Source of the DNA: Candidatus Giovannonibacteria bacterium
Lineage (GTDB): Bacteria; Patescibacteriota; Minisyncoccia; JACPKW01; UBA11713
Direction: 5' to 3'
Length of the DNA stretch: 64,000 nt
Assembly (NCBI GenBank): GCA_016186825.1
Contig: JACPKW010000001.1
Location: 13,508 to 77,507, forward strand
Shown here: piece after piece, positions 2,219 through 56,021 of the stretch
Numbering within the stretch: position 1 is the stretch's first letter
Layout: every line of letters begins with the position of its first letter
Program-made: the position numbers and the translations under genes
The notes under the pieces: model-generated
The model's database searches: none
What the model saw: only the letters and a program-made list of their open reading frames with translations
What the model was told of the DNA's origin: nothing

Positions 2219-2260
2219 CACGGTACCATCTTGGTGCGATCGCACCAAGATGGTACCGTG
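2219..2260. repeat. perfect 42-bp palindrome CACGGTACCATCTTGGTGCGATCGCACCAAGATGGTACCGTG, a member of the GGTACC/CGATCG palindrome family
   Basis: Read directly: the first 21 nt are the exact reverse complement of the last 21 nt. It sits between the end of the VOC gene and the start of the MBL gene, with a T-run upstream. Confidence 0.85.
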
Positions 2261-3826: not shown

Positions 3827-5698
3827 TTATTTGGTTATTGATCTTTCAATTAAATCGCTATCTTCAATATCATCAACAGCAATTTCCTCTGAAATCTCTT
3901 TCTCTTCCACTGCTGGTTCTGTTTCAGTCAAAAATCCTCCGGCCTGAATTGACCACAGTTTTTTATAAAGCCCCTCTTTTTGAAGAAGTTTTGCATGCGT
4001 TCCTTCGTCTATAATCTTCCCGTTATCAATCACTAGAATCCTATCCATTTTCATAATCGTGGAAAGGCGATGCGCAATGACAACGACAGTTTTCCCCTGC
4101 ATCAATGTTTGCAAAGCATCTTGAATTAAGGCCTCGGACTCGGAATCCAGGCTTGAAGTCGCCTCATCAAGAATCAATATTGGCGAATTTTTTAATATTG
4201 CCCGCGCAATCGCAACTCTTTGGCGTTCACCGCCGGATAATTTAACGCCACGCTCGCCAACATAAGTATTGTAACCGTCAGGAAGAGATCTGATAAATTC
4301 ATCGGCGTGCGCTTTCTTGGCGGCATCAACCACTTCTTCATCTATTGCGTCTCGCTTTCCATAACGGATATTGTCCATGAGAGTCCTATGAAATAATATC
4401 GGTTCCTGCGGAACAAAAGCAATCGAATTTCTCAAGCTTTCCTGTGTAACTCGTGAAATATTTTGCCCGTCAATCTCAATTGAACCGCTTCTAACGTCAT
4501 AAAGGCGAAGTAAAAGTTTTGTTACGGTGGTTTTTCCCGCCCCCGATGGACCGACGAGCGCAACTTTTTCTCCGCCGTCGATTTTCAGATTGAAGTTATT
4601 GAGCACAGGCCGATTTTCGTGAAAGTGAAAATTTATATTTTTTATGTTGATCTCGGCACGATAAGTTTTTATTGTAGGAGCATTAAGAATATCTTGGATT
4701 TCATGCGGAGTTGTTAAAATTTCTACCATTTCGCCCCCATCGGCAAAGGCATCATAGATGCGCCTAAATTCGCGATTGATTCCATCCAAACGGTTAAACG
4801 TGCCCAAAAGATATGTCTGGATCAAAACAAAATCTCCTATCGTAAGAAGTCCTTGCCTCCAAAAAATTATCGCCCCATATAGCATTGTGACGTTAATGAC
4901 AACCGTGAGAAATCCCTGCCCCGCCCAAATCATTTCATCCGCGTTCCATGACCGCATCGTTGCATAAAGCCACCTGGAAACCGCTAGTTTAAATCTCGCG
5001 TATTCATGCTCTAGGCCTGAAAAAAGCGTTACGGTAGTCTGATTTGAAATGGAATCAGCGAGTGCGCCAACCATGCGACTGTCCTCTTCGGAGCGCATAT
5101 TTCTGATGGGCTGGCGCAATCTCGCGACAAAAAACTGGAAAATGATGAAAAATATTACCCAAGCTGCAAGGATTAATCCCAAAGTCTCATTTCTGATAAA
5201 AAGGACAATATCCACACCAACAACAAACAAAAATGTTGGAAAAAAACTCATCATAATCGCATCGAAAAGAGTTTCAAATGCGTGGGTAAATTTACTCACA
5301 CGGCGAGTCAGAGTGCCTGCAAACTGGGAAATAAAGAAGTGATATGAATGCCCAATGAGATAGTCAAAAGCAGTCGAATAAAGATCCGCCATGGCCATAG
5401 CTTCAAGCCTCACAATACTGAATGTAAATGTCCTTCTCGCGATCCATTCAAAAAATAAAACAAACGCGATAATAACAAGAAGCGAAAGAAGTTCTCCGGC
5501 TATTTGGGCGCTTGGGGTCTTTGACGCCAGCAAATTAAAGAAAGTTCTCAAATAAAGCGGGGCCGCGAGGCTCGCCGCCTGAATCCCAATCGTTCCCAAA
5601 ACTACAGCGCTAAAAAGCCATGGATATGCAATGGCATGTTTAAAAAAAATATTTATCACCGCGCCCGCGCGGCTTTTTGAATCAAGATTACTTTGCAT
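3827..5698 (-). CDS. ABC transporter permease/ATPase fusion (MsbA-like exporter)
   Basis: 623 aa. N-terminal 6-TM domain, Walker A GPSGAGKTT, signature LSGGERQRVAIARAIL and Walker B ILILDEATSSLD. Confidence 0.85.
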   Translation of the reverse strand: MQSNLDSKSRAGAVINIFFKHAIAYPWLFSAVVLGTIGIQAASLAAPLYLRTFFNLLASKTPSAQIAGELLSLLVIIAFVLFFEWIARRTFTFSIVRLEAMAMADLYSTAFDYLIGHSYHFFISQFAGTLTRRVSKFTHAFETLFDAIMMSFFPTFLFVVGVDIVLFIRNETLGLILAAWVIFFIIFQFFVARLRQPIRNMRSEEDSRMVGALADSISNQTTVTLFSGLEHEYARFKLAVSRWLYATMRSWNADEMIWAGQGFLTVVINVTMLYGAIIFWRQGLLTIGDFVLIQTYLLGTFNRLDGINREFRRIYDAFADGGEMVEILTTPHEIQDILNAPTIKTYRAEINIKNINFHFHENRPVLNNFNLKIDGGEKVALVGPSGAGKTTVTKLLLRLYDVRSGSIEIDGQNISRVTQESLRNSIAFVPQEPILFHRTLMDNIRYGKRDAIDEEVVDAAKKAHADEFIRSLPDGYNTYVGERGVKLSGGERQRVAIARAILKNSPILILDEATSSLDSESEALIQDALQTLMQGKTVVVIAHRLSTIMKMDRILVIDNGKIIDEGTHAKLLQKEGLYKKLWSIQAGGFLTETEPAVEEKEISEEIAVDDIEDSDLIERSITK

Positions 5699-14615: not shown

Positions 14616-14675
14616 TAATAAAAATTATACATATTATTATACATCACTCTCATTTTTTTTCTAGTTAAGAAACCT

Positions 14676-14706
14676 AAAAACTCCCGAGGCTTGCTCGGGA
14701 GTTTTT
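14676..14706. terminator. bidirectional intrinsic terminator
   Basis: AAAAA-CTCCCGAG-gcttg-CTCGGGAG-TTTTT, read directly. Just downstream of the minus-strand gene ending at 14727. Confidence 0.65.
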
Positions 14707-14726
14707 AAGAAACTTTTTTACGGTGT

Positions 14727-21992: not shown

Positions 21993-22070
21993 AAAAACAA
22001 ATCCACAGGTTTTCCGCCGCCTTCGGCGGCGGCCAAATCGTATGGTTTTGGGGGCGAAAAAATCCGGCGG
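21993..22070 (+). repeat. GC-rich repeat B, copy 1
   Basis: About 78 bp containing the hairpin CGCCGCC-TTCG-GGCGGCG. It matches the reverse complement of 24137-24215 almost exactly. Confidence 0.8.
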
Positions 22071-22826
22071 CTAGGTCTTTCTAAAGAAAACTGGAATAAT
22101 GCGGGGCGAATCTTCTTTTTTGAAATGGCTATCTAGATTGTAATCGCCATAGATCTCTAAATTCCATTCTACACCAAAATATTCTTTTAGCCTCTCAATC
22201 TCGACATACTGCCCATTTTCAGCGTCTTCGATAGTTTCGCTTTTTCCAGTTTTCTTATCAAAAATTTCATAAACAAATTTTGTCTTTTTCAAGTTGTCAT
22301 CAGTCAGCTCCCAATCTCGGATAACTTTCATTTTGTAATCGTCATTTTCTCCCAAATAAGTTTTATGAAATTTTTGATTATATCTATAAAAATTTGCTTC
22401 GTCTAAAATAACAATTTTCTTAATGTGTGTTTTCTGCCAATCGTAGAAGTTTCTTCTGCCTTCCTCCGAAAAAATATAGGATAAAGTTGACCACATACAA
22501 ATGGCGGCGTTGTATTCTTGATTTATATTTATGGTCTCAAACTGTCCATGAATGACTTTTAAATCGGGATAATTTTTCTTGGCGATCGAAAGTGCTTTTT
22601 CTGACTGGTCGAATAAAGTTACGTCATATCCAGCTTTTAGAAGTAATCCAGAATGAAGGCCAACGCCGCCGCCCAAATCAATTACTTTTTCTATTTTTTC
22701 GGAATATTTTTTGAAAATATCAATGACAAAATTTGTTTCCTCTCTTTCGTGTCCAACTTTTCCAAGAGTTGTTTCGCGCCACAAGGGAAATAATTCAGCC
22801 AAATTTTCATAAATTTTCGTTTTCAT
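22071..22826 (-). CDS. class I SAM-dependent methyltransferase
   Basis: 251 aa. Motif I VIDLGGGVGLHSGLLLKAGYDVTLFD and a post-I acidic residue. Confidence 0.75.
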   Translation of the reverse strand: MKTKIYENLAELFPLWRETTLGKVGHEREETNFVIDIFKKYSEKIEKVIDLGGGVGLHSGLLLKAGYDVTLFDQSEKALSIAKKNYPDLKVIHGQFETININQEYNAAICMWSTLSYIFSEEGRRNFYDWQKTHIKKIVILDEANFYRYNQKFHKTYLGENDDYKMKVIRDWELTDDNLKKTKFVYEIFDKKTGKSETIEDAENGQYVEIERLKEYFGVEWNLEIYGDYNLDSHFKKEDSPRIIPVFFRKT

Positions 22827-22831
22827 AAATT

Positions 22832-23845
22832 TCAGCCAATTTTTGTCAAAACCTCCAACAGCTTCTCTGTATATTGTTTTGATCCGATTGAAATACGCAT
22901 AAATTCTTCGGAAACAAATTTTGAAATCAAAAAATTCATTTTGTCTAATTCTTGTTCCAAAATAGGTTTTGCTGTTTTTTCTACTTTCACTAAAACAAAG
23001 TTTGCTTTTGAATCAAAGGCTTTAAAATTCTTAGATTTGTTGACCTCGGCAACAAAATTTTGCCTATCAGAAATAACCTCACTTGAAAGTTTTTCATAGT
23101 ATTCATCTGATTCAAGTGCGGCAATCGCAATTTCTTCTAAAAGTCGGCTACCGCCCAAGTAAAAATTTTGATAGCGTAAAATCTCTTTCACTTTTTTGCC
23201 GCACAATGCAAATCCAATTCGCAAACCAGCGAGCGCATAAAGTTTAGAAAAACTCCTTAAAATCATTAAATTATCATGTTTTTCCAGCAAAGCTATAAAA
23301 TCTTGCTGATTATATTTTTCGTCAAATCCAAAATAAGCTTCGTCCAAAACAACGAGAGTTGCTTTGTCGGCTTTATTCAATATCTTTTGCAAATCAGCAA
23401 GATTTGTTGAATTTCCTGTCGGATTGTTTGGCGAAGTGATTAAAACCAATTTTGGCTTTAATTCACCAACTTTTCTAAGGCAATCATCAATATCAAAAGT
23501 AAAATCGTTCTGATTTTCTATGAGTCTAAAATTTTCCAACTTTATCTTCTTAAAATCAAGATATTTGTCGTAATAAGTGTAATGAAATTCATGAGTGAGA
23601 ACAATATCATTATCTGGTTTCAAACTGTCAAAAATAGTTCTAAAAATATCTTCTAATCCATAACCAATAATGATTTGATCTTCCGGTAATTGGAAAATTT
23701 TAGACAATTTTGGAATTAAGGTCGAACCAAAATAGCCTTCAAAATACAAAGCTATATGTTCAGAGGAGAAATTTCTTGAAGTCTCCAAAACTTTTGGCGA
23801 TGGCCCTTGTATTACCTCATTTCGATTTAGTAGTTTTTTGTCCAT
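22832..23845 (-). CDS. PLP-dependent aminotransferase class I/II (HisC-like)
   Basis: 337 aa. LVLITSPNNPTGN, VVLDEAYFGF and SFSKLYALAGLRIGF, the PLP-lysine motif. Confidence 0.75.
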   Translation of the reverse strand: MDKKLLNRNEVIQGPSPKVLETSRNFSSEHIALYFEGYFGSTLIPKLSKIFQLPEDQIIIGYGLEDIFRTIFDSLKPDNDIVLTHEFHYTYYDKYLDFKKIKLENFRLIENQNDFTFDIDDCLRKVGELKPKLVLITSPNNPTGNSTNLADLQKILNKADKATLVVLDEAYFGFDEKYNQQDFIALLEKHDNLMILRSFSKLYALAGLRIGFALCGKKVKEILRYQNFYLGGSRLLEEIAIAALESDEYYEKLSSEVISDRQNFVAEVNKSKNFKAFDSKANFVLVKVEKTAKPILEQELDKMNFLISKFVSEEFMRISIGSKQYTEKLLEVLTKIG

Positions 23846-24136: not shown

Positions 24137-24215
24137 GCCGCCGGATTTTTTCGCCCCCAAAACCATACGATTTGGCCGCCGCCGAAGGCGGCGGAAGGCC
24201 TGTGGATTTGTCTTT
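24137..24215 (-). repeat. GC-rich repeat B, copy 2 (inverted)
   Basis: Reverse complement matches 21993-22070. It ends about 10 nt from the 3' end of tRNA-Ala. Confidence 0.8.
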
Positions 24216-31018: not shown

Positions 31019-31122
31019 TTTTTTAAAAAATATTTTACTTTTAATCTCGACCTGAAGGCTAATTAAATAAGCTAAGCTCTGATTTAAGTATAATTAAACA
31101 ATGATTTCAGTCAAAGCAAAAC

Positions 31123-31150
31123 CCCTTTGCACTTTGCAAAGGGGTTTTGC
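31123..31150. terminator. bidirectional intrinsic terminator (CCCCTTTGCA-ctt-TGCAAAGGGG plus T-run)
   Basis: Perfect 10-bp stem with an A-run before and a T-run after. On the minus strand it lies about 175 nt downstream of the 16S 3' end. Confidence 0.7.
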
Positions 31151-46744: not shown

Positions 46745-47638
46745 TTAATCATTTATCAGCTTGTGAGCCTTTTTTAAAAGCGGTTTAATATCATCATAAG
46801 TTTTCAAATCATCGAATTCTTCGGGCAAAAACCATCTCGCATCATCAAGGCCGCTATGATCTTCGCCTAAATTTAAATCGCTTTCTTTTGTTTCTGCCAA
46901 AAAATATGTGACTTGCCTGCGAATTTTCCCTTTGGCTGGATCAGATGCAATATATTCGTTTTTTCCGAGTTCTTCTGTCAACACTAAATCTTTCAAGCCA
47001 AGTTCTTCTGCAAGCTCTCTTTTTGCGCCTGCCGATGAATCTTCCTCACCTTCCAAGTGGCCCTTTGAGAGCGTCCAATATCCAAAAACATCGTGGACAA
47101 GCGCAAAAAATATTTTTTTTCCATCGCGCCTGAAAACGACTCCGCCTCCCAATTTTTCAATAGGAAGATCAGCAAGGTCTTTGATAATTTTCTTTTTTGA
47201 AGTTTCATCTTTGCCGGGCTCCCCGATCTCCCGATAAACAGTGCCTAAAACTCCGTTTATGAATTTGCCCGACGAATCAGACCCGAAAGTTTTCGCGATT
47301 TCGATTGCTTCGTTGATCGCAACTTTAGGCGGAACCTCTTCGCGATTGCCAAAAAGAAGCTCGTAAAGGCCGAGACGCAAAACATTACGGTCCACCATCG
47401 CAACCTGTTCTAAGGGCCATTCCGGAGCGGCTTTCTCAATAATCGAGTCTATTTTGTCTCGATTTGCAAGAACGCCGTTCACTAATTCTCGGGCGAATTT
47501 GGGATCATCCATTCCGGGCGCGAATTCTTCTAACATCCCATTTAAAATTTTTTCCACCTGTTCATTTTTCTGCCCGTGAAAATCCCACTCAAAAAGAGTT
47601 TGCATCGCGATACTGCGGGAAAGATGTCTATTTGCCAT
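46745..47638 (-). CDS. NusB-like N-terminal domain fused to a NUDIX hydrolase domain
   Basis: 297 aa. Residues 1-150 are NusB-like (RSIAMQTLFEWDF...LRLGLYELLF...AINEAIEIAKTFGSDSSGKFINGVLG). The C-terminus has a perfect Nudix box GHLEGEEDSSAGAKRELAEELGL (Gx5Ex7REUxEExGU). Confidence 0.75.
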   Translation of the reverse strand: MANRHLSRSIAMQTLFEWDFHGQKNEQVEKILNGMLEEFAPGMDDPKFARELVNGVLANRDKIDSIIEKAAPEWPLEQVAMVDRNVLRLGLYELLFGNREEVPPKVAINEAIEIAKTFGSDSSGKFINGVLGTVYREIGEPGKDETSKKKIIKDLADLPIEKLGGGVVFRRDGKKIFFALVHDVFGYWTLSKGHLEGEEDSSAGAKRELAEELGLKDLVLTEELGKNEYIASDPAKGKIRRQVTYFLAETKESDLNLGEDHSGLDDARWFLPEEFDDLKTYDDIKPLLKKAHKLIND

Positions 47639-47722
47639 ATTTTATTTTGGAGAACCTAAGGAGCCGGTAAAAGAACAATTTTAATTATTTCAAATTATGG
47701 ACTTATTTTTACCTTTATAAAT

Positions 47723-47995
47723 TTATTTCCTTGAAAGTTCTTCGAGGCTGCCCGAACCCTGCTCCTCCTTTGCCCCCTCTAGTTCTTTCTCTTTTTTCTT
47801 TCGCTCTTTTTTATCTAATTTTTTAAGGACATCAATTACCTGTCTGTCGTTATACCAGCCGCAATTCGCACATATTACATGCGGAAGTTTTTCAAAACCG
47901 CAATGGTTGCACTTCGAAAGCCGCCCCACTTTTAAAGCGTGGTGCGATCTCCGGTTATTTCTATGCGATTTTGTATGCCTCATTCGAACTGTCAT
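47723..47995 (-). CDS. rpmF: 50S ribosomal protein L32 with a C-terminal acidic/basic extension
   Basis: 90 aa. MTVRMRHTKSHRNNRRSHHAL plus a CxxC...CxxC zinc ribbon (CNHCG...CANCG). Confidence 0.75.
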   Translation of the reverse strand: MTVRMRHTKSHRNNRRSHHALKVGRLSKCNHCGFEKLPHVICANCGWYNDRQVIDVLKKLDKKERKKKEKELEGAKEEQGSGSLEELSRK

Positions 47996-48094
47996 AAGAA
48001 ATAGCTTAGCAATTCATCGTTTACTTTTCAAGACGTAAAAGAGGGCGAACATATTTCCCGGCCTCTTTTTGGCGTTATTGATTGCTACTGCCAC

Positions 48095-48502
48095 TCATGA
48101 GACCTTGATTTTGGCCTCGGTTGAATCAGCAGAAGCTTCCGCCGCTTTGATACTCCATTTTTTTACCGCATCCTTGATGGAGCTTCGCAAAATATAGAAC
48201 TTCTCTTCAAGCGGGGCTTCTCCAAAACGCGTTAGCAGCTTTTCGGCGAATTCTTTGCCCCACTCCCCAAAAAGAATATCAACCACCCGTCCGCAACATT
48301 CCACCACCCCCTGGTGTCCTAAAAAACCAAAGGTGTGATAACTCAAGTCCGAATCATCACGTTTTGGGTGTTTCGTGCCACAGAGTCCGCACTGGATAGC
48401 GGTATGTGTGCCGTGCATACAATTACCCAGAGTAAATATTTCCGATGGACCTACTGGTTTTTTAAATACGTATCCTCTCCCCTTTCTTTGCTTTTTCTTC
48501 AT
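48095..48502 (-). CDS. Cys-rich hypothetical protein, possibly a divergent YceD/DUF177 positional analogue
   Basis: 135 aa. Cys motifs CMHGTH, CGLCG and ECCGR. It sits upstream of rpmF, where DUF177 usually sits. No confident motif match. Confidence 0.4.
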   Translation of the reverse strand: MKKKQRKGRGYVFKKPVGPSEIFTLGNCMHGTHTAIQCGLCGTKHPKRDDSDLSYHTFGFLGHQGVVECCGRVVDILFGEWGKEFAEKLLTRFGEAPLEEKFYILRSSIKDAVKKWSIKAAEASADSTEAKIKVS

Positions 48503-48607
48503 AAATACCTCCCCGTTTTTGACCGACTTTGAACAACCGTAGAATAAAAAACTTCCAGGCCAATTATCGTACAGCCTATACTTTTTTACAAGCTCCGCTC
48601 AAAACTT

Positions 48608-49288
48608 TCATATGTTGAACATTCGATGTTCAACATTGAGCCTTTCTTCCAGTTTTCGTATGCTTGTCTTTTCAAGCAAATCTCTATACTCGGAGCGGGT
48701 TTCAAATTGATCTAAGATTAAGCTCGGATTTAAAAAATTTGCCCATCGACTTTCATAAACATAATCTTGATAGCTAGACCAAGGATATTGTAATTCTTTT
48801 TTCTTCCACCGTTTTAATTCTCCAGGGTTTAAGTGGATATACGCAGTTAGGTAATGCAAATATTTATCAGTATCTATATGCGCGGATTGAAATTTGCTTC
48901 CAAAAAGATGGCCGGAGCGATTATATCTGGTGTTGAAATATTTCGTATATGCATTTAGCAGACGCTGCATATATTTAGAAATCCCTCCTTCTTTTTCGCT
49001 ACCTACAATCAAGTGGAAGTGATTCGCCATCAAACAAAAACCTACTAGTTCAATATATCTTGACTTTTCAATCTGTCCAAAAATCAAATTGTTGAACATT
49101 CGATGTTCAACCAATGGCACGATGCGCCCAAAAGGATTCAAAACTGCATCACCTTGGAGCGCAAAGAGAAGCGAAAGAAAACGCCAGCGATCTTTATCAT
49201 CAAGAAAGATATTGCGTTTCTCAACCCCTCGGTTGAAAACATGGTAATACTCTCCACCCGCTAATTTTGCCCGAGACATAATCCTCAT
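48608..49288 (-). CDS. IS200-like Y1 (HUH) transposase, REP-associated tyrosine transposase (RAYT)-like
   Basis: The start is taken at the first ATG (MRIMSRAK). The ORF-track start at 49315 is a TTG inside a hairpin. YYHVFNRG (like YHVxxRG) and LMANHFHLIV (the HUH motif) are diagnostic. A C-terminal Tyr-containing helix is present. Confidence 0.7.
   Translation of the reverse strand: MRIMSRAKLAGGEYYHVFNRGVEKRNIFLDDKDRWRFLSLLFALQGDAVLNPFGRIVPLVEHRMFNNLIFGQIEKSRYIELVGFCLMANHFHLIVGSEKEGGISKYMQRLLNAYTKYFNTRYNRSGHLFGSKFQSAHIDTDKYLHYLTAYIHLNPGELKRWKKKELQYPWSSYQDYVYESRWANFLNPSLILDQFETRSEYRDLLEKTSIRKLEERLNVEHRMFNI
48612..48636. repeat. REP-like palindrome ATGTTGAACAT-TCG-ATGTTCAACAT (3' copy, overlaps the last 9 codons of the transposase)
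   Basis: Perfect 11-bp arms, read directly. Confidence 0.85.
49090..49111. repeat. REP-like palindrome TGTTGAACAT-TCG-ATGTTCAACC (internal copy, in-frame inside the transposase gene)
   Basis: 9/10 arm match. It encodes the same VEHRMFN peptide as the 3' copy. Confidence 0.8.
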
Positions 49289-49294
49289 TATAAA

Positions 49295-49317
49295 TGTTGA
49301 ACATCCAATGTTCAACA
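49295..49317. repeat. REP-like palindrome TGTTGAACAT-CCA-ATGTTCAACA (5' copy at the transposase start)
   Basis: Perfect 10-bp arms, immediately upstream of or overlapping the start region. Confidence 0.85.
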
Positions 49318-49331
49318 GTTAGTTCAGGAGG

Positions 49332-49928
49332 TTAGATTAGTTTCGTGCAAAAACTGACGCGGTGAATTTCGGAGAGACCGTTTTTTAAAACCAATTCGCG
49401 GTGGAGTTTCGTCCCATAACCTTTATGCTGGTCAAAATTATAAAGAGGGAATTTTTTTGCGAGGCGCATCATTTTACGATCACGCGTTACTTTTGCAACT
49501 ATGGAAGCCGCAGAAATGACTGAAATCTTTTCATCGCCTTTTATAATCGTTTCCTGCTGATATTCGGAAGGCGCATGAAGAGAACCGTCGAGCAGCAGTT
49601 TAATAGTTGAGTAGTTAAATAGTTTATTTGTTACAAATAACTTTTTGAGACAGCGCTTTATCGCGAGCCTTGTAGCGTATGTAATTCCCTTTTTATCAAT
49701 CACTGCGTTGCTTACGCATGAGACGGAATATCTAAAATTATGATTTTTTTTGATTTTCGAAAACCAGACGTCGCGTTTTTTTGCAGACAGTTTTTTTGAG
49801 TCTCTAATGCCATCAAAAAAATTCGATTTATTAAATTTTGAACCCACTGGCTGAACTAACGCCGCGACCGTAACCGGCCCCGCCAATGGCCCTCTCCCCG
49901 CTTCGTCAATTCCAACAATAAATCTCAT
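49332..49928 (-). CDS. rnhB: ribonuclease HII
   Basis: 198 aa. IVGIDEAGRGPLAGPV is the RNase HII active-site motif. Confidence 0.85.
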   Translation of the reverse strand: MRFIVGIDEAGRGPLAGPVTVAALVQPVGSKFNKSNFFDGIRDSKKLSAKKRDVWFSKIKKNHNFRYSVSCVSNAVIDKKGITYATRLAIKRCLKKLFVTNKLFNYSTIKLLLDGSLHAPSEYQQETIIKGDEKISVISAASIVAKVTRDRKMMRLAKKFPLYNFDQHKGYGTKLHRELVLKNGLSEIHRVSFCTKLI

Positions 49929-50032
49929 GATCTAAGGATAACTTCTTCTTTTACAAAATAAAGGGTAAACTCACTCACAATTAATGTATTGTCAACATAA
50001 CTTATTTTCATAAATTCATTTACAATGTTTGC

Positions 50033-53000
50033 ATGAGCTTCGTGCATCTCCATACCCACAGTCACTATTCCCTGCTCGACGGCTTGGTTAAAATCCCGGA
50101 ACTTGTCAAAGAAGCCGCGAAAATGGGTATGCCCGCGCTTGCGCTGACCGATCACGGAAATCTATACGGGGCCATCGAATTTTATAAAAAAGCCCGCAGC
50201 GCAGGAGTCAAGCCGATTATTGGGCTCGAAGCTTATGTTGCCCTCCGCACAATCCTTGACAAAGAACCTGGAATTGATGATAAGCGTTTTCATCTGATCC
50301 TGCTCGCGGAAAATGACGAGGGATACCACAATTTGATCAAACTCGTAACAATTTCAAACCTTGAAGGTTTTTATTACAAGCCCAGGATTGACAAGGAGCT
50401 TTTACGAAAATATTCCAAGGGTCTGATCTCGCTCTCCGCCTGCCTTGGCGGAGAAATTTCTCGCGCCCTTTTCAGAAGCGACTGGGAAAGCGCGGAAAAA
50501 ATTGTCTCTGAATACAAGGATATTTTTGGCGCGAATAATTTCTATATCGAAATTTCACATCATCCGAATATTCCGAATCATGCAGAAATTCAATCCAAGC
50601 TCCGTGAGCTTGCAAAAAAAACTGGCACACCTCTGGTCGCAACGCAGGACGTTCATTATTTGAAGTCGGAAGATGCTGGAGCACAGGATGTTCTTTTGGC
50701 TGTTCAGACAAACTCAAAACTTGACGATGAAGACCGGCTCACAATGAAAACTGACGATTTTTCTCTAAGGAGTCCCGAAGAAATGAGCAAACTTTTCGCG
50801 GATATTCCTGAAGCAGTCCAAAACACCCTGAAAATCGCCGAACGCTGCAATATTACAATCGAGCTCGGCATTCTCAAATTGCCGGTCTTCGCAGTTCCAG
50901 AAAACGAAACTCCGGAAAGTTTTTTGGAAAAACTCTGCTGGGAAAGAATAAGCAAACGTTATAAAAACTCAACCGATGAGATAAACAAACGCCTCGCCTA
51001 TGAACTCGATGTGATTAAAAAAACAGGCTTCGCATCTTACTTTTTGATCGTGCAGGATTTCGTAAACTGGGCAAAGGACAATGGGATTATCGTTGGCCCC
51101 GGTCGGGGCTCCGCAGCAGGCTCCATCATTTCCTACATTCTTGGAATTACAAATATAGACCCGATTCACTACAATTTAATTTTCGAGCGCTTCATGAACC
51201 CTGACCGAATTTCCCCGCCGGACATCGATCTCGATTTTCCGGACACCGGAAGAGACCGTGTGCTCCAATATGTTGAAAATAAATACGGGCGCGACAAAGT
51301 TGCGCAAATTATCACTTTCGGAACAATGGCCGCGCGTGCCGCGATTCGAGACGCGGGACGCGCGCTCGGAGTCTCTTACGGATTTTGCGACCAGCTTGCA
51401 AAGCTAATTCCTTTCAATCCCACACAAGGAATGAAGGAGGGATGGCTCGATCATTGTCTGAAAGAAATCGAGGAGTTGAAAATTTTTTATGAAAAAGACC
51501 CCGAGGCAAAAAGGGTAATTGACGCGGCATTAAAGTTGGAAGGCGTTGCGCGACATGCATCGGTGCACGCCTGCGGCGTTGTAATCACAAATGACCCGCT
51601 CGAAAATATAGTCCCGCTACAATATGCAACACCGCAAGGAGAGTCAAATGCTCCAAACAACGTAGTAGTGACTCAATATGAAATGCACGCAATTGAGGAT
51701 TTAGGGCTTTTAAAAATGGACTTTCTTGGGCTAAAAAACTTGAGCATCATTGAGGCCGCTACGAACCTAATTAAAGAGAGGCATAATCTCAAACTGGATT
51801 TGGATTCGTTGACCCTCGATGATCCAGCTGTATTTAAAACTCTGGCAGAAGGAAAAACAGTGGGAGTGTTCCAGCTTGAAGGACATGGCATGACGCGTTA
51901 TTTAAAAGAACTCGGCCCAACCAACATTGAGGATATTATCGCGATGATCTCGCTTTATCGCCCGGGACCAATGGAACTTATTCCGTCTTATATCAAGAGA
52001 AAACGCGGAATAGAGCAGGTAATTTATCTTCACCCAAAACTCGAACCAATTTTAAAAAATACCTTTGGAATTGCAGTTTACCAGGAGCAAATGATGCAGA
52101 TCGCACGCGACCTCGCAGGCTTTACTTTGGCTGAAGCGGACACGCTTCGAAAGGCTATCGGCAAGAAAATTAAAAGCTTACTCGCCGAACAGAAGAAAAA
52201 ATTTGTTGAGCGCATGATCCAAAACAAAATTGAAAAATCAGTCGCAAGAAAACTTGGCGACCTTCTTGAACCATTTGCCCGTTATGGCTTTAACCGCTCA
52301 CATGCCGCTTCGTACGCAGTCGTAGCTTACCAAACGGCATATTTGAAAACATACTATCCAATAGAATTTATGACCGCGCTCATGAATGCTGACGAAAAAG
52401 ATATAGAGCGGATCGGTTTTCTAATCAAAGAAACGAAAGAGATCGGGATTGAAGTATTGCCGCCAAATCTAAACTCGTCTTACGACGGCTTTGCTCCCGA
52501 AATATTTTTTGATAACAGCAAAGAAGCGCAGGCGATCCGCTTCGGGCTTCAGGCGATAAAAAACGTCGGATCGAATGCAGTCAAGGCGATCATCGCAGAG
52601 CGCTCTGAAAATGGAATCTTTTCGACCCTTCCGGATTTTCTTGAAAGAATCCCCGCCGAAGATATGAACAAAAAAACGCTTGAGGCGCTTGCGAAATCCG
52701 GCGCACTTGACGCTCTCGGCGAAAGAAATCAGATTCTCGAAAATATGGACACTCTTCTTTCATTTCACCGCGAAGCAAGCGATGCAAAAAATAAAAATCA
52801 AGACTCACTTTTTGGTTCGAGCGATAAAATTTATGCCCCTACGCTCCGCTTGAAAGAGGCCATGCCGGCAAGGCAGGAAGAAAAGCTGCGCTGGGAAAAG
52901 GAACTCCTCGGGCTTTTTGTTTCGGGCCACCCCTTGGAAAAATACCGCGAGGCGCTCGACCGTCATAAGATGAACATCAAAGTCGCAAAATCTTTTAAAG

Positions 53001-53335: not shown

Positions 53336-55111
53336 ATGAAAAATTCTAATGGGGTGCTAAAGCAGAAGAAATCGCACGAATTACTTAATCCTCAAAAAAA
53401 ATTAGGCAATACCCGCCATTCGCTCGCCCATTTGCTTGCGGCTGCGGTCTTAAAAAAATTCCCAAACGCGAAACTTGGAATTGGACCCGCGATCGAGACG
53501 GGTTTTTATTATGATTTCTTACTTCCGCGGCAACTAACTTCGGGAGATCTGAAGGATTTCGAAGAAACAATGCGGACGATGATTTTAGAATGTCTCCGCT
53601 TCACTGGGAAAAAAGTTACGCCGGTTTTGGCAAAAAAACTCTTTAAGGATCAGAAATTCAAGCTTGAGCTTATTTCGGACTTCACGAAAGAAAAAAAACC
53701 GCTCACGGTTTACAGCACTGGGAATATATTTATGGATCTCTGCCGCGGAGGGCATGTTAAAAATACTTCTGAAATAAATCCTGACGCTTTCAGGCTTACG
53801 CACATTGCTGGCGCCTATTGGAAAGGTAATGAAAAAAATCCGCAGTTGACTAGAATTTATGGTGTTGCCTTCGATTCCAAAAAAGAGCTCGAAGACTATT
53901 TAATGAAGCAGGAGGAAGCCAAAAAACGAGATCACAGAAGGCTGGGAAAAGATCTTTCGCTTTTTGCAATCGCAGATGAAATCGGCCCCGGACTTCCGCT
54001 CTTTTATCCCAAAGGAGCGATCTTAAGGCGCACTGTTGAAAATTTCATTCAAGATCTACAGGAAAAAAATGGCTACGAACCTATTTGGATTCCGCATATA
54101 ACTAAAGGCGAGCTATATAAAATTTCTGGGCACCTTGATAAATACGATGCGATGTATCCCCCGATGAAATTGAAGGGCGAGGCGGAATATTATCTAAAAC
54201 CGATGAACTGCCCGCATTTCATGATGCTCTATAGAACACGCGCTCATTCCTACCGCGAGCTTCCGATTCGCTGGACCGCCACAACAACTGTTTACCGGCT
54301 TGAGAAATCCGGCGAGCTTTCGGGCCTGACGCGCGTTCGCTCGCTTACGCAAGACGACTGCCATGTTTTTGCAAAAGCGGACCAAATCGAGAATGAAATA
54401 AATCTAATGCTCGACATGCTTGAGAAAGTTTACGGCGCTTTTGGTTTTAATGACTTTCGAGTTCACATCTCCACTCACGACCCTAAAGATATCAAAAAAT
54501 ATATCGGCGAGCGCAAGATCTGGAAACAATCAGAAAAAATTCTCGAAAATTTGATCCAAAAAAGAAGCTGGAGTTTTGAAATTGTTCCCGGCGAAGCGGC
54601 GTTTTACGGGCCAAAGCTCGACTTTATTTTTAAGGATGTTTTAGGTCGGGAATGGCAGCTTTCGACGATCCAACTCGACATGAATCTTCCGAAACGATTT
54701 GAGCTTGAGTATACTGACGAAAACGGAAAAAGAAAAGAACCGATCGTCATTCATCGCGCAATTTTGGGATCAACAGAGAGATTTCTCGGAATTATTGTCG
54801 AGCATTTTGCAGGTGCATTTCCTTTTTGGTTGGCGCCAGTTCAGGTTTCAATTTTAACTATAAATGAAAAAACTTTTCCGTTTGCAAAAGGGATAGAGCG
54901 AGAGCTTCGAAAAAGTGAAATTAGAGTTGAAATAGACTCAAGAAACGAAACCATCGGCAAAAAAATTCGCGAAGCAGAAATGCAAAAAGTCCCGTTCATC
55001 TTGATAATAGGCGATAAGGAAGTTGCCGCAAATAAAGTTGCCGTGCGCGAAAGAGGCAAAGGCGACCTCGGTCAAAAAACACTCGAAGAATTTCTAAAAA
55101 TTGCGAAATAA
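53336..55111 (+). CDS. thrS: threonyl-tRNA synthetase (lacks the N-terminal TGS domain)
   Basis: 591 aa. Starts in the editing domain (RHSLAHLLAAAV...GPAIETGFYYDF). Class II catalytic motifs (KPMNCPHFMM, FRLE, GAFYGPKLD) and an anticodon-binding domain. Confidence 0.85.
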   Translation: MKNSNGVLKQKKSHELLNPQKKLGNTRHSLAHLLAAAVLKKFPNAKLGIGPAIETGFYYDFLLPRQLTSGDLKDFEETMRTMILECLRFTGKKVTPVLAKKLFKDQKFKLELISDFTKEKKPLTVYSTGNIFMDLCRGGHVKNTSEINPDAFRLTHIAGAYWKGNEKNPQLTRIYGVAFDSKKELEDYLMKQEEAKKRDHRRLGKDLSLFAIADEIGPGLPLFYPKGAILRRTVENFIQDLQEKNGYEPIWIPHITKGELYKISGHLDKYDAMYPPMKLKGEAEYYLKPMNCPHFMMLYRTRAHSYRELPIRWTATTTVYRLEKSGELSGLTRVRSLTQDDCHVFAKADQIENEINLMLDMLEKVYGAFGFNDFRVHISTHDPKDIKKYIGERKIWKQSEKILENLIQKRSWSFEIVPGEAAFYGPKLDFIFKDVLGREWQLSTIQLDMNLPKRFELEYTDENGKRKEPIVIHRAILGSTERFLGIIVEHFAGAFPFWLAPVQVSILTINEKTFPFAKGIERELRKSEIRVEIDSRNETIGKKIREAEMQKVPFILIIGDKEVAANKVAVRERGKGDLGQKTLEEFLKIAK

Positions 55112-56021
55112 TAAGGCCGCCCACGGGAAAAAAGGCAAACTGATCGTCATTCTCGGCCCAACCGCCTCGGGAAAATCTGAATTTGCAGTCAAACTTGCCA
55201 AAAAATTGAAAGGCGAGATTATTTCGGCCGATTCAAGACAAGTTTATAAAGGGCTAGATATCGGAACTGCCAAAGTTAAGGGTGAGTGGGTAGGCGGAAG
55301 ATTTATTTTCAAAGGTATCCCTCATTATTGCATTGACTTTGTATCGCCAAAGAAAGTTTTCAGTGTTCGCGACTTCATAAAATTCGCAGAGGAAGCAATC
55401 ACTTCGATATATCGAAGTGGAAAAATTCCATTTGTTGTCGGCGGAACTGCTTTTTATATCAGTGCTTTTGTGGATGGCATAATCTTGCCAGAAGTTCCAC
55501 CTAACGTAAAACTGCGAAAGAAATTATCAAACTATTCAACTAATCAACTATTTAACTATTTGACAAAATTAGATCCTGAACGCGCCAAAACAATTGACCA
55601 AAAAAATAAACGCCGCTTAATCCGCGCGCTTGAAATTGTGGCAGCCATCGAGAAAGTCCCCCCTCTATCGACATCGGATGTCGATAGGAGGAAAAAATAT
55701 ACCAGTAATTTTATCGGATTAAAAACGGCGCCAGAAAAATTAAAAAAAAGAATCAAAAAACGCACTCGAGATATGATTAGACGCGGACTGACCCGAGAAG
55801 TTTCGAGCTTACATCGTTCCGGTTTGAGTTGGAAGCGCATTTATGAGTTCGGATTTGAATATAAATACCCCGCGCTCTACTTGCAAAAGAAAATTTCAAA
55901 AACAGAAATGATTTCATCAATAAATAAAGAATCAATTGACTACACGCGCCGCCAAATGCTCTGGTGGAAGAATGATAAACGAATTCACTGGATAAGCACG
56001 GCGCCAGTTTCTCGAAACTAG
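55101..56021 (+). CDS. miaA: tRNA dimethylallyltransferase
   Basis: 306 aa. P-loop ILGPTASGKSEFAVKLAKKL, ISADSRQVYKGLDIGTAK. Confidence 0.85.
   Translation: MRNNKAAHGKKGKLIVILGPTASGKSEFAVKLAKKLKGEIISADSRQVYKGLDIGTAKVKGEWVGGRFIFKGIPHYCIDFVSPKKVFSVRDFIKFAEEAITSIYRSGKIPFVVGGTAFYISAFVDGIILPEVPPNVKLRKKLSNYSTNQLFNYLTKLDPERAKTIDQKNKRRLIRALEIVAAIEKVPPLSTSDVDRRKKYTSNFIGLKTAPEKLKKRIKKRTRDMIRRGLTREVSSLHRSGLSWKRIYEFGFEYKYPALYLQKKISKTEMISSINKESIDYTRRQMLWWKNDKRIHWISTAPVSRN

What the first reader, a model, noticed from the sequence alone, without database searches (positions are those of the whole stretch)
48608..49318. IS200-like Y1 transposase (RAYT-like) carrying its own REP palindrome three times, twice in-frame within the coding sequence
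The HUH transposase (YYHVFNRG...LMANHFHLIV) is flanked by TGTTGAACAT-NNN-ATGTTCAACA hairpins at its start (49295-49317) and overlapping its last 9 codons (48612-48636). A third copy (49090-49111) lies in-frame inside the gene, between the YHV and HUH motifs. Both the internal and the 3' copies translate to VEHRMFN. Transposase plus cognate REP hairpins is the REPtron arrangement. A REP copy tolerated inside the transposase ORF is unusual. It may mark self-targeted insertion, or a hairpin-binding site used for autoregulation, or the gene may be an inactivated relic.
Basis: seen in the sequence. Interest (0 to 1): 0.6.

Follow-up and report, generated by a model that had tools for sequence, protein, structure and literature searches.

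The report
Hairpin-cutting enzyme gene carrying its own palindrome
A small bacterial gene for a DNA-hairpin-cutting enzyme is bracketed by, and contains in frame, three copies of one 23-27 base palindrome; this layout is shared by hundreds of relatives in ultra-small (Patescibacteria) bacteria, where the same palindrome also sits in frame inside housekeeping genes.

Summary
GTTGAACAT-NNN-ATGTTCAAC occurs exactly three times in 64 kb, all at one gene (48608-49279, minus strand): upstream, inside and over the last codons.

The gene is an intact HUH/Y1 nuclease. It is nearer to REP-associated RAYT/TnpAREP enzymes than to IS200 (Y..NP motif; best fold match 4ER8). It is not a relic.

The VEHRMFN segment is not a private insertion. 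It lies in a variable, low-confidence loop present in all homologs. Its residues co-vary as palindrome-encoded peptides.

Among 80 homologous loci, almost all from Patescibacteria, most carry a locus-specific perfect palindrome on both sides of the gene. About 30 carry the same palindrome in frame inside it. The palindromes co-evolve with the protein.

The gene sits between rnhB and rpmF in several Giovannonibacteria, and gene and palindromes are absent together in two others.

In metagenomes the same palindrome also occurs alone. About half of those copies lie inside genes such as trmD, leuS, uvrC and murI, nearly always read as VEHxMFN. This window holds no dispersed copy.

Verdict: a REPtron-like unit of a RAYT-type nuclease, a new variant of a known kind. 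In-frame REPs inside RAYT genes were already described for subclass 2.4. The role of the internal copy is unresolved; I judge it a tolerated copy kept matched to the flanking ones.

The parts
48608..49279 (-). CDS of a 223-aa HUH/Y1 nuclease (RAYT-type TnpA-Y1), ATG 49279-49277, stop TGA 48610-48608
   Evidence: ORF and sequence. Pfam Y1_Tnp: 39.3 bits against a cut-off of 23. 100% identical to P0001, 'transposase [Candidatus Giovannonibacteria bacterium]'. AlphaFold model has pLDDT 84; the best PDB match is 4er8 TnpAREP, E 7e-6.
49295..49317 (.). 5' palindrome TGTTGAACAT-tgg-ATGTTCAACA (10-bp stem), 16-38 nt upstream of the ATG and 14 nt after the rnhB stop codon
   Evidence: Folded as ssDNA: -8.6 kcal/mol, z -6.4. 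Homologous loci have a palindrome at the same place, with a median start near -46.
49287..49315 (-). Predicted sigma-70-type promoter of the gene: TTGAAC (49315-49310), 17 nt, TATAAT (49292-49287). The -35 box and most of the spacer lie inside the 5' palindrome. The -10 box ends 7 nt before the ATG, which implies a leaderless mRNA.
   Evidence: Consensus scan, 10 of 12 matches. A -10 box matching at least 5 of 6 ends 6-8 nt before the ATG in 41 of 78 homologous loci, as a sharp peak. Promoter function is inferred, not shown.
49091..49111 (.). Internal palindrome GTTGAACAT-cga-ATGTTCAAC (9-bp stem), in frame, encoding V57-E-H-R-M-F-N63 between strand beta1 (YYHVFNRG) and the HUH motif
   Evidence: The peptide lies in the only low-confidence internal stretch of the model, query residues 52-60. 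25 loci have a palindrome at the homologous loop.
48612..48636 (.). 3' palindrome ATGTTGAACAT-cga-ATGTTCAACAT (11-bp stem) covering the last codons (N-V-E-H-R-M-F-N-I) and ending 1 nt before the stop codon
   Evidence: Folded as ssDNA: -10.2 kcal/mol, z -6.4. Homologs have a 3' palindrome overlapping or just past the stop codon.
49013..49021 (-). HUH motif codons H87-F88-H89 (within N-H-F-H-L)
   Evidence: Invariant in 34 homologs, as H88 and H90 in the numbering of alignment A1.
48824..48841 (-). Y motif Y147-I-H-L-N-P (putative catalytic tyrosine; the Y..NP signature of class 2 / RAYT-type enzymes)
   Evidence: Y, H and N are invariant in A1. The motif table of Quentin et al. 2018 (PMC6006769) gives Y---NP for class 2 and Y---Q for IS200.
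49332..49928 (-). rnhB (RNase HII), the upstream neighbour. It defines the syntenic site rnhB | Y1 unit | rpmF.
   Evidence: The same order is found in L001, L164, L165, L118 and L055. The site is empty in L163 and L162.

Best explanation
This is a REPtron-like unit. A resident, vertically inherited gene for a RAYT-type HUH/Y1 single-strand DNA nuclease is found together with its cognate short perfect palindrome.

Shown:
- The enzyme is intact.
- The palindrome is specific to the locus and co-evolves with the protein across the family.
- It brackets the gene.
- The same palindrome occurs as solitary copies elsewhere in related genomes, about half of them in frame inside ordinary genes.

Inferred by analogy with IS608/ISDra2 TnpA and E. 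coli TnpAREP:
- The palindromes fold into hairpins on single-stranded DNA, for example on the lagging-strand template.
- The enzyme binds them and cuts and rejoins next to them. This occasionally copies or moves the unit of about 27 nt (12+3+12, or 9 codons) and keeps all copies matched to the enzyme's specificity.

The internal copy is an old in-frame copy lodged in a disordered surface loop that tolerates any sequence. I judge it most likely a tolerated passenger. It would be kept identical to the flanking copies by the same enzyme-dependent copying or gene conversion, and lost by decay in many lineages. I do not think it is an essential part of the enzyme.

The 5' copy overlaps the gene's own -35 box and spacer, so hairpin extrusion or enzyme binding there could damp transcription. 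This last step is inferred only.
For: Enzyme identity:
- Pfam Y1_Tnp above cut-off.
- HUH, Y..NP and WSS are invariant in 34 homologs.
- The best fold match is 4er8, TnpAREP with a REP hairpin (E 7e-6, TM 0.66), ahead of IS608/ISDra2 TnpA.

Family-wide architecture:
- Among 80 GTDB loci plus the window, 57 have two or more copies of one palindrome at the gene (10-bp stems, mostly 3-nt loops), upstream of the ATG and at the stop codon.
- Arms differ by 0.83 of 10 nt within a locus and by 5.97 of 10 between loci.
- Hairpin distance tracks protein distance (rho 0.42, Mantel p 0.001).
- The internal copy is identical in 20 of 20 stem nt to a flanking copy in 15 of 31 cases.

Internal hairpins:
- Across 25 internal hairpins all 10 pairs show double-sided changes. 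The covariation score is 0.925, against 0.26 when shuffled and at most 0.19 when slid.
- Third-codon positions inside the hairpin are conserved: 6 of 6 against an ortholog of 66% aa identity and 5 of 6 against one of 50%. The background is 0.47 and 0.40.

DNA level rather than RNA level:
- G:T and A:C mismatches are equal, 28 against 27.
- The 5' copy lies upstream of the predicted transcription start.

Residency:
- dnaE-rnhB-Y1-rpmF-nusB-rnc order is shared with L001. Y1 is 62% identical and the neighbours 58-74%.
- The same order is seen in L164, L165 and L118.
- Gene and palindromes are both absent at the same site in L163 and L162.

Dispersal:
- 68 of 99 exact metagenome sites are not at a Y1 gene.
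- One 706-kb contig has 5 separate copies, one of them at a Y1 gene.
- 19 of 39 distinct family-like contexts lie in ORFs of at least 120 aa, and 17 of those 19 are read as VEHxMFN. Hosts include TrmD, LeuRS, UvrC, a racemase and a glycosyltransferase.
- 17 extra copies lie in the 335 kb flanking the other loci.

Loop tolerance:
- The peptide falls in the only internal stretch with pLDDT below 50.
- Other clades carry internal copies in a second loop, between YIHLNP and WSS.

Dispensability:
- The internal copy has decayed in L164, L165, L105, L109 and L135, although their flanking copies are intact.
Against: - No biochemical evidence exists for this family. Binding, cleavage and mobilisation are all inferred.
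- In this window there is no dispersed copy in 64 kb. In related genomes the copy number is far below classical REPs: 5 per 706 kb, against more than 100 per genome.
- The canonical 5' GT[AG]G guide is absent, with information content of 0.28 bit or less next to the stem.
- The NCBIfam RAYT equivalog model scores 35.7 against a cut-off of 80.
- The relative loop orientation of the 5' and 3' copies varies between loci, so no strand logic can be read.
- The TrmD case is not a clean 9-aa indel against close homologs, so insertion events are not directly demonstrated.
- The hairpin sets were selected for being hairpins, which is an ascertainment bias.
- Nucleotide-level conservation of the internal copy is also what a selected function would give.
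Confidence: 0.62

Rival explanations
1. The internal palindrome is a selected cis-element. The nuclease or a hairpin/cruciform acts on its own coding sequence, together with the promoter-overlapping 5' copy. Possible outcomes are limiting of enzyme dosage, or a reversible or irreversible in-frame rearrangement between the three copies. For example, deletion of the 477 nt between the internal and 3' copies would leave a 65-aa ORF.
For: - Exact 18 of 18 nt identity of the internal copy across orthologs that are only 50-66% identical in protein, with conserved third-codon positions.
- The copy is retained at one loop in 25 loci from clades with quite different palindromes.
- Clades that lack it at that site carry internal copies in a second loop.
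- The internal and 3' copies are in the same reading frame in 5 of 8 loci where both are coding.
- The 5' copy overlaps the -35 box and spacer.
- The internal copy of L001 has a left arm of the 5' type and a right arm of the 3' type, which is what exchange between copies would produce.
Against: - The copy is lost by substitution in about two thirds of family loci, including syntenic orthologs with intact flanking copies: L164, L165, L105, L109 and L135.
- Frame agreement of 5 of 8 is not significant and is partly due to shared ancestry.
- No truncated or rearranged variant was seen among the homologs or loci examined.
- The same palindrome sits harmlessly in many unrelated genes.
Confidence: 0.2
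2. It is an ordinary autonomous IS200-type insertion sequence. The 5' and 3' palindromes are the subterminal left-end and right-end hairpins, the whole unit of about 720 bp transposes, and the internal copy is incidental.
For: - The hairpin-gene-hairpin unit has the size and layout of IS200.
- Gene and hairpins are present or absent together at the rnhB|rpmF site.
- The family occupies many different genomic contexts: 77 of 80 loci are not next to rnhB.
- Some genomes hold two or three paralogs.
Against: - The Y motif is Y..NP, not Y...Q.
- The fold is closest to TnpAREP.
- Paralogs in one genome are divergent and have different palindromes; no near-identical copies were seen.
- The gene diverges in step with its syntenic neighbours, including L055 at 35% identity, which is still downstream of rnhB.
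- Solitary palindromes without any gene are dispersed, including inside ORFs. IS ends do not do this.
- The palindromes are perfect and their relative orientation is not fixed.
Confidence: 0.1
3. The palindromes are double-stranded operators for a dimeric DNA-binding protein, possibly the C-terminal part of this enzyme. They would serve only to regulate the gene and would not be mobile DNA.
For: - The 5' copy overlaps the predicted promoter.
- A symmetric site with a 3-nt centre would suit a dimer.
- In about half of the hairpins the first and third loop bases are also complementary.
Against: - Symmetry holds at every one of the 10 positions and often extends to 11-20 bp. A protein would constrain only the contacted bases.
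- Copies at the stop codon, inside the ORF and inside unrelated housekeeping genes have no regulatory logic.
- Loop flips (cga/tcg, ccg/cgg) are typical of hairpin processing.
Confidence: 0.04
4. The hairpins act in RNA, as a terminator or insulator after rnhB, an mRNA 3' stabiliser, or a translational pause site inside the ORF.
For: - The scan flags the 5' and internal copies as terminator-like, with T-rich tails.
- The 5' copy follows the rnhB stop codon by 14 nt.
- REPs in other bacteria are known to stabilise upstream mRNA (PMC3733652).
Against: - There is no excess of G:U-compatible mismatches over A:C mismatches on the sense strand, 28 against 27.
- The 5' copy lies upstream of the gene's own predicted transcription start.
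- RNA function would not require the three copies to share one sequence, nor that sequence to track the protein.
- No Rfam family matches.
Confidence: 0.04

Closest known systems
REPtrons: RAYT / TnpAREP genes flanked by cognate REPs (E. coli yafM, PDB 4ER8; class 2 of Quentin et al. 2018, PMC6006769; Corneloup et al. 2021, PMC8266576)
   Same: - An HUH/Y1 enzyme with a Y..NP motif; the fold is closest to 4ER8.
- A low-copy, vertically inherited gene.
- Flanked by palindromes that are specific to each gene and co-evolve with it.
- The same palindromes occur elsewhere in the genome.
- Perfect-palindrome REPs are a known subgroup.
   Different: - No 5' GT[AG]G guide. The conserved bases T-G-(T) form the base of the stem on both sides, a 'double foot'.
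- Very low copy number: none outside the gene in this 64-kb window, and 5 in one related contig of 706 kb.
- Below the NCBIfam RAYT cut-off.
- About half of the solitary copies are intragenic.
- The host phylum (Patescibacteria) was not covered by those surveys.
Subclass 2.4 (Bertels group 4) RAYTs with REPs inserted in frame inside the tnpAREP gene (Quentin et al. 2018, their Fig. S10)
   Same: The cognate palindrome is present inside the nuclease's own ORF without breaking the frame, in a peripheral variable region of the protein.
   Different: [quoted passage not shown]
- Here the window's copy lies between beta1/alphaA and HUH. It is positionally conserved across a large clade, shows no length polymorphism, and stays matched to the flanking copies.
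- The protein motifs differ. Subclass 2.4 has NH[IFV]H / WQ / YIxNNP; this family has NHFH / F[GQ] / YIHLNP / WSS.
Subclass 2.1 (Bertels group 1) and TIRYTs (De Nocera et al. 2013, PMC3733652)
   Same: - The motif set NH[YF]H, FQ, Y[IV]HLNP with a C-terminal tail containing SS, and a length of about 220-240 aa, matches the table in PMC6006769 best.
- Flanking repeats that overlap the 5' or 3' end of the gene are described for TIRtrons.
   Different: - Subclass 2.1 was reported to have no REP-like sequences.
- TIRYT repeats are terminal inverted repeats with a GGGGWSAS motif, which is absent here.
- My assignment rests on motif inspection, not on the authors' HMMs.
IS200 (IS200/IS605 family, class 1)
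   Same: - The same enzyme superfamily.
- A unit of about 0.7 kb made of one gene between two subterminal hairpins.
- A promoter at the left end.
   Different: - Y...Q motif against Y..NP here.
- IS200 occurs as multiple near-identical copies and has imperfect hairpins of fixed orientation.
- IS200 has no solitary hairpins, and none inside its ORF.
Rickettsia palindromic elements (RPEs) and intragenic REPs (De Nocera et al. 2013)
   Same: Short palindromic repeats residing in frame inside housekeeping genes, including repair and translation genes, where they add a short peptide to surface loops.
   Different: - RPEs are 100-150 bp and have no known cognate enzyme.
- Here the unit is about 27 nt and is tied to a specific Y1 nuclease gene, which itself carries a copy.

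Membership tests
HUH/Y1 transposase superfamily (Pfam Y1_Tnp, PF01797) | Profile match above the curated cut-off | tested here: met
   39.3 bits against a cut-off of 23, E 8e-10.
HUH/Y1 transposase superfamily (Pfam Y1_Tnp, PF01797) | HUH metal-binding motif and a single conserved tyrosine on a C-terminal helix | tested here: met
   N-H-F-H-L and A-Y-I-H-L-N-P are present. H, H and Y are invariant in 34 homologs. The catalytic role itself was not tested.
HUH/Y1 transposase superfamily (Pfam Y1_Tnp, PF01797) | TnpA-type fold | tested here: met
   The AlphaFold model has pLDDT 84. Foldseek hits are 4er8 (E 7e-6), then 2xo6, 2vjv and 2a6o (E 3-5e-4).
RAYT / TnpAREP (class 2) | Y---NP tyrosine motif, as opposed to Y---Q of IS200 | tested here: met
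   Y-I-H-L-N-P, with Y, H and N invariant. Motif definitions come from PMC6006769.
RAYT / TnpAREP (class 2) | NCBIfam equivalog model REP_Tyr_transpos (NF047646) above cut-off | tested here: not met
   35.7 bits against a cut-off of 80.
RAYT / TnpAREP (class 2) | Gene flanked on both sides by its own palindromic repeat (REPtron) | tested here: met
   In the window. In the family: 57 of 81 loci with two or more matching palindromes at the gene.
RAYT / TnpAREP (class 2) | The same repeat dispersed through the genome in many copies | tested here: inconclusive
   - No copy outside the gene in this 64-kb window.
- In relatives: 17 extra copies in 335 kb of flanks, 5 copies on one 706-kb contig, and 68 solitary sites in metagenomes.
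- The rest of this genome could not be read.
RAYT / TnpAREP (class 2) | Conserved 5' GT[AG]G guide tetranucleotide at the foot of the hairpin | tested here: not met
   - No conserved base in the 10 nt on either side of 118 non-coding copies; information content is 0.28 bit or less.
- The conserved bases are T-G-T inside the base of the stem.
RAYT / TnpAREP (class 2) | Low copy number and vertical inheritance of the gene | tested here: met
   - One copy in the window.
- Synteny with L001, L164, L165, L118 and L055, with divergence similar to that of the neighbours.
- Absent from the same site in L162 and L163.
RAYT / TnpAREP (class 2) | Enzyme cleaves and rejoins its cognate REP as single-stranded DNA | not testable with these tools
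   This needs purified protein and oligonucleotides (the CST assay of PMC8266576).
IS200-type insertion sequence (class 1) | Y---Q motif | tested here: not met
   The motif here is Y-I-H-L-N-P.
IS200-type insertion sequence (class 1) | Several near-identical copies of the whole element per genome | tested here: not met
   - A single copy in 64 kb.
- Paralogs in one genome are divergent and carry different palindromes: L017/L066, L016/L043, L028/L032 and L112.
- Whole genomes were not examined.
Subclass 2.4 RAYTs with intragenic REP | Cognate REP in frame inside the nuclease ORF | tested here: met
   Window copy at 49091-49111. 31 internal copies were found in the family loci.
Subclass 2.4 RAYTs with intragenic REP | [quoted passage not shown] | tested here: not met
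   - The window's copy lies before HUH.
- The second family site lies after the Y motif.
- The motifs here are NHFH / F[GQ] / YIHLNP.
Subclass 2.1 / TIRYT | Motifs NH[YF]H, FQ, Y[IV]HLNP, SS-containing tail, about 238 aa | tested here: met
   By inspection of alignment A1 against Table 1 of PMC6006769. The authors' HMMs were not available, so this is a provisional placement.
Subclass 2.1 / TIRYT | No REPs; terminal inverted repeats with GGGGWSAS | tested here: not met
   Hairpin palindromes are present. No GGGGWSAS motif was seen in the flanks printed.

The most novel reading that the evidence does not exclude
The three-palindrome layout is a built-in self-control or switching device. The nuclease recognises the copy inside its own coding sequence and the one over its own promoter.

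Under this reading, enzyme activity feeds back on its own gene. The feedback could act by promoter occlusion, by nicking of its own template, or by precise in-frame deletion or exchange between copies.

That would explain why an internal copy is retained, or re-acquired in another loop, over very long times in a phylum with almost no spare DNA.
Probability: 0.15. Interest if true: 0.75.

Novelty: new variant of a known kind. Interest (0 to 1): 0.55.

Why it matters
RAYT/REP systems are the best-known case of a domesticated transposase living with a population of short mobile hairpins. They have been studied almost only in Proteobacteria and Cyanobacteria.

This family looks like a minimal version in Patescibacteria, whose genomes of about 1 Mb have almost no intergenic space. 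The palindrome is only about 27 nt, which is 9 codons. It is present in very few copies, and half of the solitary copies survive inside protein-coding genes, including the nuclease's own gene.

The family therefore offers three things:
- A simple, well-defined set of enzyme-hairpin pairs. There are dozens of natural specificity variants with compensatory changes for studying how Y1 enzymes read hairpins.
- A natural experiment on how selfish palindromes persist in streamlined genomes by hiding in protein loops.
- A testable case for whether a copy inside the enzyme's own gene has a regulatory role.

For annotation, recurring VEHxMFN-type peptides in these organisms' proteins should be read as palindrome-encoded inserts.

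Tried and rejected
- A single-sequence search of the PDB found nothing. Only a profile search and a fold search linked the protein to solved TnpA structures.
- Rfam found no family in 47500-50200 at E up to 1.
- I tested whether the internal and 3' copies always share a reading frame, which would suit an in-frame deletion. They do in 5 of 8 informative loci. This is not significant and is partly shared ancestry.
- I looked for a GTAG-like guide or any conserved cleavage motif beside the hairpins and found none.
- I looked for RNA-type asymmetry (G:U against A:C mismatches) and found none.
- I tried to show a clean 9-codon insertion in TrmD by aligning 27 close homologs. The palindrome peptide lies in a hypervariable loop of similar length in relatives, so presence or absence is clear but an exact indel is not.
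- An apparent 14-aa deletion in L083 relative to L109 is an assembly gap (N run), not biology.
- Comparison of the empty site (L163) with filled sites (L165, L164) did not give exact unit boundaries, because the spacers are too diverged.
- I could not count the palindrome in the rest of this genome.
- 17 of the 68 solitary metagenome hits are probably unrelated chance or other-organism matches (GC above 0.52, or no T..A tenth pair). They were set aside.
Full report
**1. What is in the window**

On the minus strand, between rnhB (49332-49928) and a small Cys-rich ORF (48095-48502), lies a 223-codon ORF. Its ATG is at 49279 and its stop codon at 48608-48610.

- The palindrome GTTGAACAT-NNN-ATGTTCAAC occurs three times and nowhere else in the 64 kb, even with 3 mismatches allowed. 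The chance expectation is 0.04.
- The 5' copy (49295-49317, 10-bp stem) ends 15 nt before the ATG.
- The internal copy (49091-49111, 9-bp stem) encodes V57-E-H-R-M-F-N63.
- The 3' copy (48612-48636, 11-bp stem) encodes the last residues, N-V-E-H-R-M-F-N-I.
- As single-stranded DNA the three fold at -8.6, -7.5 and -10.2 kcal/mol.

The start codon needs a small correction, and so do the stem lengths.

**2. The protein**

- It matches Pfam Y1_Tnp above the cut-off.
- It stays below the NCBIfam RAYT equivalog cut-off.
- It is 100% identical to a protein annotated 'transposase' in a Candidatus Giovannonibacteria assembly. It has more than 560 homologs of 45-65% identity, essentially all from Patescibacteria.
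- In an alignment of 34 homologs the HUH histidines, the tyrosine of A-Y-I-H-L-N-P and a W-S-S motif are invariant.
- The AlphaFold model (pLDDT 84, pTM 0.84) is closest to E. coli TnpAREP bound to a REP hairpin (4er8, E 7e-6). IS608 and ISDra2 TnpA come next.
- The Y..NP motif is the class 2 (RAYT-type) signature in Quentin et al. 2018. IS200 has Y...Q.
- The motif set NHFH / F[GQ] / YIHLNP / SS-tail, with a length of about 220 aa, fits their subclass 2.1 best. That subclass was reported to have no REPs. My placement rests on inspection of their table, not on their models.

The gene is intact and conserved. It is not a relic.

**3. The internal segment is native to the family, and its sequence is dictated by the palindrome**

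In the homolog alignment the position of VEHRMFN is occupied in every member of the clade, with no length difference. The residues co-vary exactly as a palindrome read in this frame must:

| Peptide | Arms |
|---|---|
| VEHxMFN | GTTGAACAT / ATGTTCAAC |
| VKHxMFD | GTCAAACAT / ATGTTTGAC |
| VQHxMLD | GTCCAACAT / ATGTTGGAC |
| VESRTFD | – |
| IKQGHFD | – |
| DEHSMFI | – |

The peptide lies in the only low-confidence internal stretch of the model, between helix 29-41 and helix 65-73. The segment is thus a permissive surface loop whose coding sequence is a nucleic-acid element.

**4. The three-copy layout is a family trait**

I fetched 80 homologous loci from species-representative genomes and scanned them for hairpins.

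- Most loci have a perfect palindrome 20-80 nt upstream of the ATG and another overlapping or just after the stop codon. The stem is about 10 bp and the loop usually 3 nt.
- 25 loci have the same palindrome inside the CDS in the loop homologous to the window's.
- 6 loci carry an internal copy in a second variable loop, between YIHLNP and WSS. One of these, L051, also carries the copy in the first loop.
- The palindrome differs between loci by 5.97 of 10 arm positions, but by only 0.83 of 10 within a locus.
- Hairpin distance correlates with protein distance (rho 0.42, Mantel p 0.001).
- The internal copy is identical to a flanking copy in all 20 stem nucleotides in 15 of 31 cases.
- Across the 25 internal hairpins every one of the 10 pairs shows compensatory double changes. 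The covariation score is 0.925, against 0.26 for shuffles and at most 0.19 for slid partners. These hairpins were selected for pairing, so the percentage paired is not independent evidence.
- Stem bases are commonly T-G-T...A-C-A, and loops are mostly CCG/CGG/TCG/CGA in either orientation.

**5. DNA or RNA?**

- Among 101 mismatched stem positions, G:T (28) and A:C (27) are equally common on the coding strand. There is therefore no sign that the sense RNA is the selected form.
- A -10 box matching at least 5 of 6 ends 6-8 nt before the ATG in 41 of 78 loci, as a sharp peak. The window has TTGAAC-17-TATAAT, ending 7 nt before the ATG.
- This points to leaderless transcripts that start at or near the ATG. 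The 5' palindrome would then be outside the gene's own mRNA and would overlap the -35 box and spacer.
- Symmetry extends over all stem positions and often to 11-20 bp. This fits base pairing better than protein contacts on duplex DNA.

The shared identity of the three copies is therefore most simply read at the DNA level.

**6. Resident gene, not a jumping IS**

- A second Giovannonibacteria species (L001) has the same order dnaE-rnhB-Y1-rpmF-nusB/NUDIX-rnc. Y1 is 62% identical and the neighbours 58-74%.
- The same arrangement holds in L164, L165 and L118. L055 shares the upstream part of it (dnaE-rnhB-Y1), although its Y1 is only 35% identical and its palindrome unrelated.
- In two relatives whose RnhB is closest to the window's (L163 at 65%, L162 at 67%) the Y1 gene is missing from this site, and no family palindrome is left. 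L163 has only 39 nt between rnhB and rpmF.
- Gene and palindromes therefore come and go as one unit over long times. One gain and one loss would suffice.
- No near-identical duplicate units were seen. Paralogs in one genome are divergent and have different palindromes.

**7. The palindrome also lives elsewhere**

- In 13 of the 80 loci, exact extra copies lie 0.3-4 kb from the gene. Of 17 good copies in 335 kb, 13 are intergenic and 4 lie inside other ORFs.
- A scan of metagenome contigs with the window's palindrome found 99 sites in 81 stretches. 31 are at Y1 homologs of 50-66% identity and 68 are solitary.
- One 706-kb contig has five separate exact copies, one of them at the 3' end of a Y1 gene.
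- I set aside 17 probable chance hits. The remaining 51 solitary sites fall into 39 distinct contexts.
- 19 of the 39 contexts lie within ORFs of at least 120 aa, and 17 of those 19 are read as V-E-H-x-M-F-N, often N-V-E-H-x-M-F-N-I. That is a unit of 12+3+12 = 27 nt, or 9 codons.
- Host genes include an Asp/Glu racemase, UvrC, an MBL hydrolase, TrmD, LeuRS, a GT4 glycosyltransferase and a beta-helix protein.
- In TrmD the peptide occupies a hypervariable loop. It is present in 4 of 27 close homologs but is not a clean indel.
- This window shows no dispersed copy, and the genome's own TrmD (P0152) lacks the peptide.

**8. How the internal copy is kept**

- Against an ortholog of 66% protein identity (L149), third-codon positions at conserved residues are 47% identical outside the hairpin and 6 of 6 identical inside it.
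- Against an ortholog of 50% identity (L117) the figures are 40% and 5 of 6.

The nucleotide sequence is therefore held. This could be by selection, or by continual matching to the other copies through enzyme-dependent copying or gene conversion.

Against an essential role, the internal copy has decayed by substitution in many lineages with intact flanking copies. These include L164, L165, L105, L109 and L135, and about two thirds of family loci.

The internal copy of L001 has a left arm like its 5' copy and a right arm like its 3' copy. It could be an intermediate of compensatory change, or a product of exchange between copies.

**9. Interpretation**

The best-supported reading is a REPtron-like unit of a RAYT-type Y1 nuclease with a very short, perfect, 'double-foot' palindrome.

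By analogy with the solved TnpA and TnpAREP complexes and the in-vitro work (PMC3479197, PMC8266576), the enzyme should bind the folded single strand and cut and rejoin beside it. None of this has been tested for the family.

I take the internal copy to be an old, tolerated in-frame copy in a disordered loop, kept matched by the process that keeps the flanking copies matched. A real regulatory or self-targeting role is the main alternative; I give it about 0.2. The promoter overlap of the 5' copy is the most concrete lead for regulation.

**10. Relation to the literature**

Already described:
- REPtrons.
- Co-evolution of RAYTs with their REPs.
- Perfect-palindrome REPs.
- Flanking repeats that overlap the gene ends.
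- Intragenic REPs in housekeeping and repair genes.
- In-frame REPs inside tnpAREP genes of subclass 2.4 (PMC6006769, PMC3733652, PMC8266576).

Not found in three full-text searches:
- This Patescibacteria family.
- A subclass-2.1-like enzyme with hairpin repeats.
- A positionally conserved internal copy that co-varies with the flanking copies.
- A palindrome of 9 codons spread in frame through the genes of streamlined genomes.

I therefore rate it a new variant of a known kind, of moderate interest.

Noticed in passing
window 55665-55687 (inside ORF 55101-56021, +): A lone perfect palindrome CTATCGACAT-cgg-ATGTCGATAG lies in frame (P-L-S-T-S-D-V-D-R) inside a miaA-like (tRNA isopentenyltransferase) ORF. 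It has the same build as the family palindromes: a 10-bp stem, a CGG loop and an ACAT/ATGT top. It is unique in the window. It may be a solitary copy belonging to another Y1 gene elsewhere in the genome.
   Followed up: partly
window 22014-22032 and 24176-24194: Two copies of a GC-only palindrome, CCGCCGCC-ttc-GGCGGCGG and CCGCCGCC-gaa-GGCGGCGG, have flipped loops. They lie 2.1 kb apart and bracket two minus-strand ORFs (22071-22826 and 22832-23845).
   Followed up: no
window 2219-2260; 14675-14707; 31116-31150: Long perfect palindromes with stems of 19, 14 and 16 bp. The window has 23 hairpin records with a stem of at least 8 bp and a 3-5 nt loop (several sites listed at two loop sizes), against 1-5 in shuffles. 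These three were not examined; they may be terminators.
   Followed up: no
window 46745-47638 (-); also L162-L165: The NusB homolog is fused to a NUDIX hydrolase domain (297 aa). The fusion is conserved in the syntenic relatives, where precomputed Pfam lists give NusB plus NUDIX.
   Followed up: no
L110 2487-5423 (-): A Patescibacteria leucyl-tRNA synthetase carries the VEHSMFN palindrome peptide in its anticodon-binding region. It also has a NUDIX domain inserted at residues 392-508.
   Followed up: no
L082 7546-8310 (-): One 255-aa ORF of unknown function contains two different palindrome-type peptides: N-V-E-H-S-M-F-N-I at residue 46 and V-K-H-R-M-F-D near its C-terminus. This suggests copies of two related palindrome variants in one gene.
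   Followed up: no
L001 about 4958-4980, 5167-5190 and 5638-5660: In the syntenic ortholog the top of the 5' copy is CAT/ATG and that of the 3' copy is CCT/AGG, a compensated change. The internal copy is the hybrid CAT/AGG. This is either an evolutionary intermediate or a sign of exchange between copies.
   Followed up: partly
L164 4740-4765, L165 4300-4325, L163 3600-3627: A -10-like box (TATAAT, TGTAAT or TAGCAT) ends about 5-13 nt before the ATG of rpmF. Leaderless-type promoters may therefore be general in these organisms and not special to the Y1 gene.
   Followed up: no
window 48095-48502 (-): A 135-aa Cys-rich ORF lies between the Y1 gene and rpmF. It has no counterpart at this position in L163 or L165. 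L164 has an unrelated 103-aa ORF between rnhB and Y1 instead. The rnhB-rpmF spacer is therefore a variable spot.
   Followed up: no
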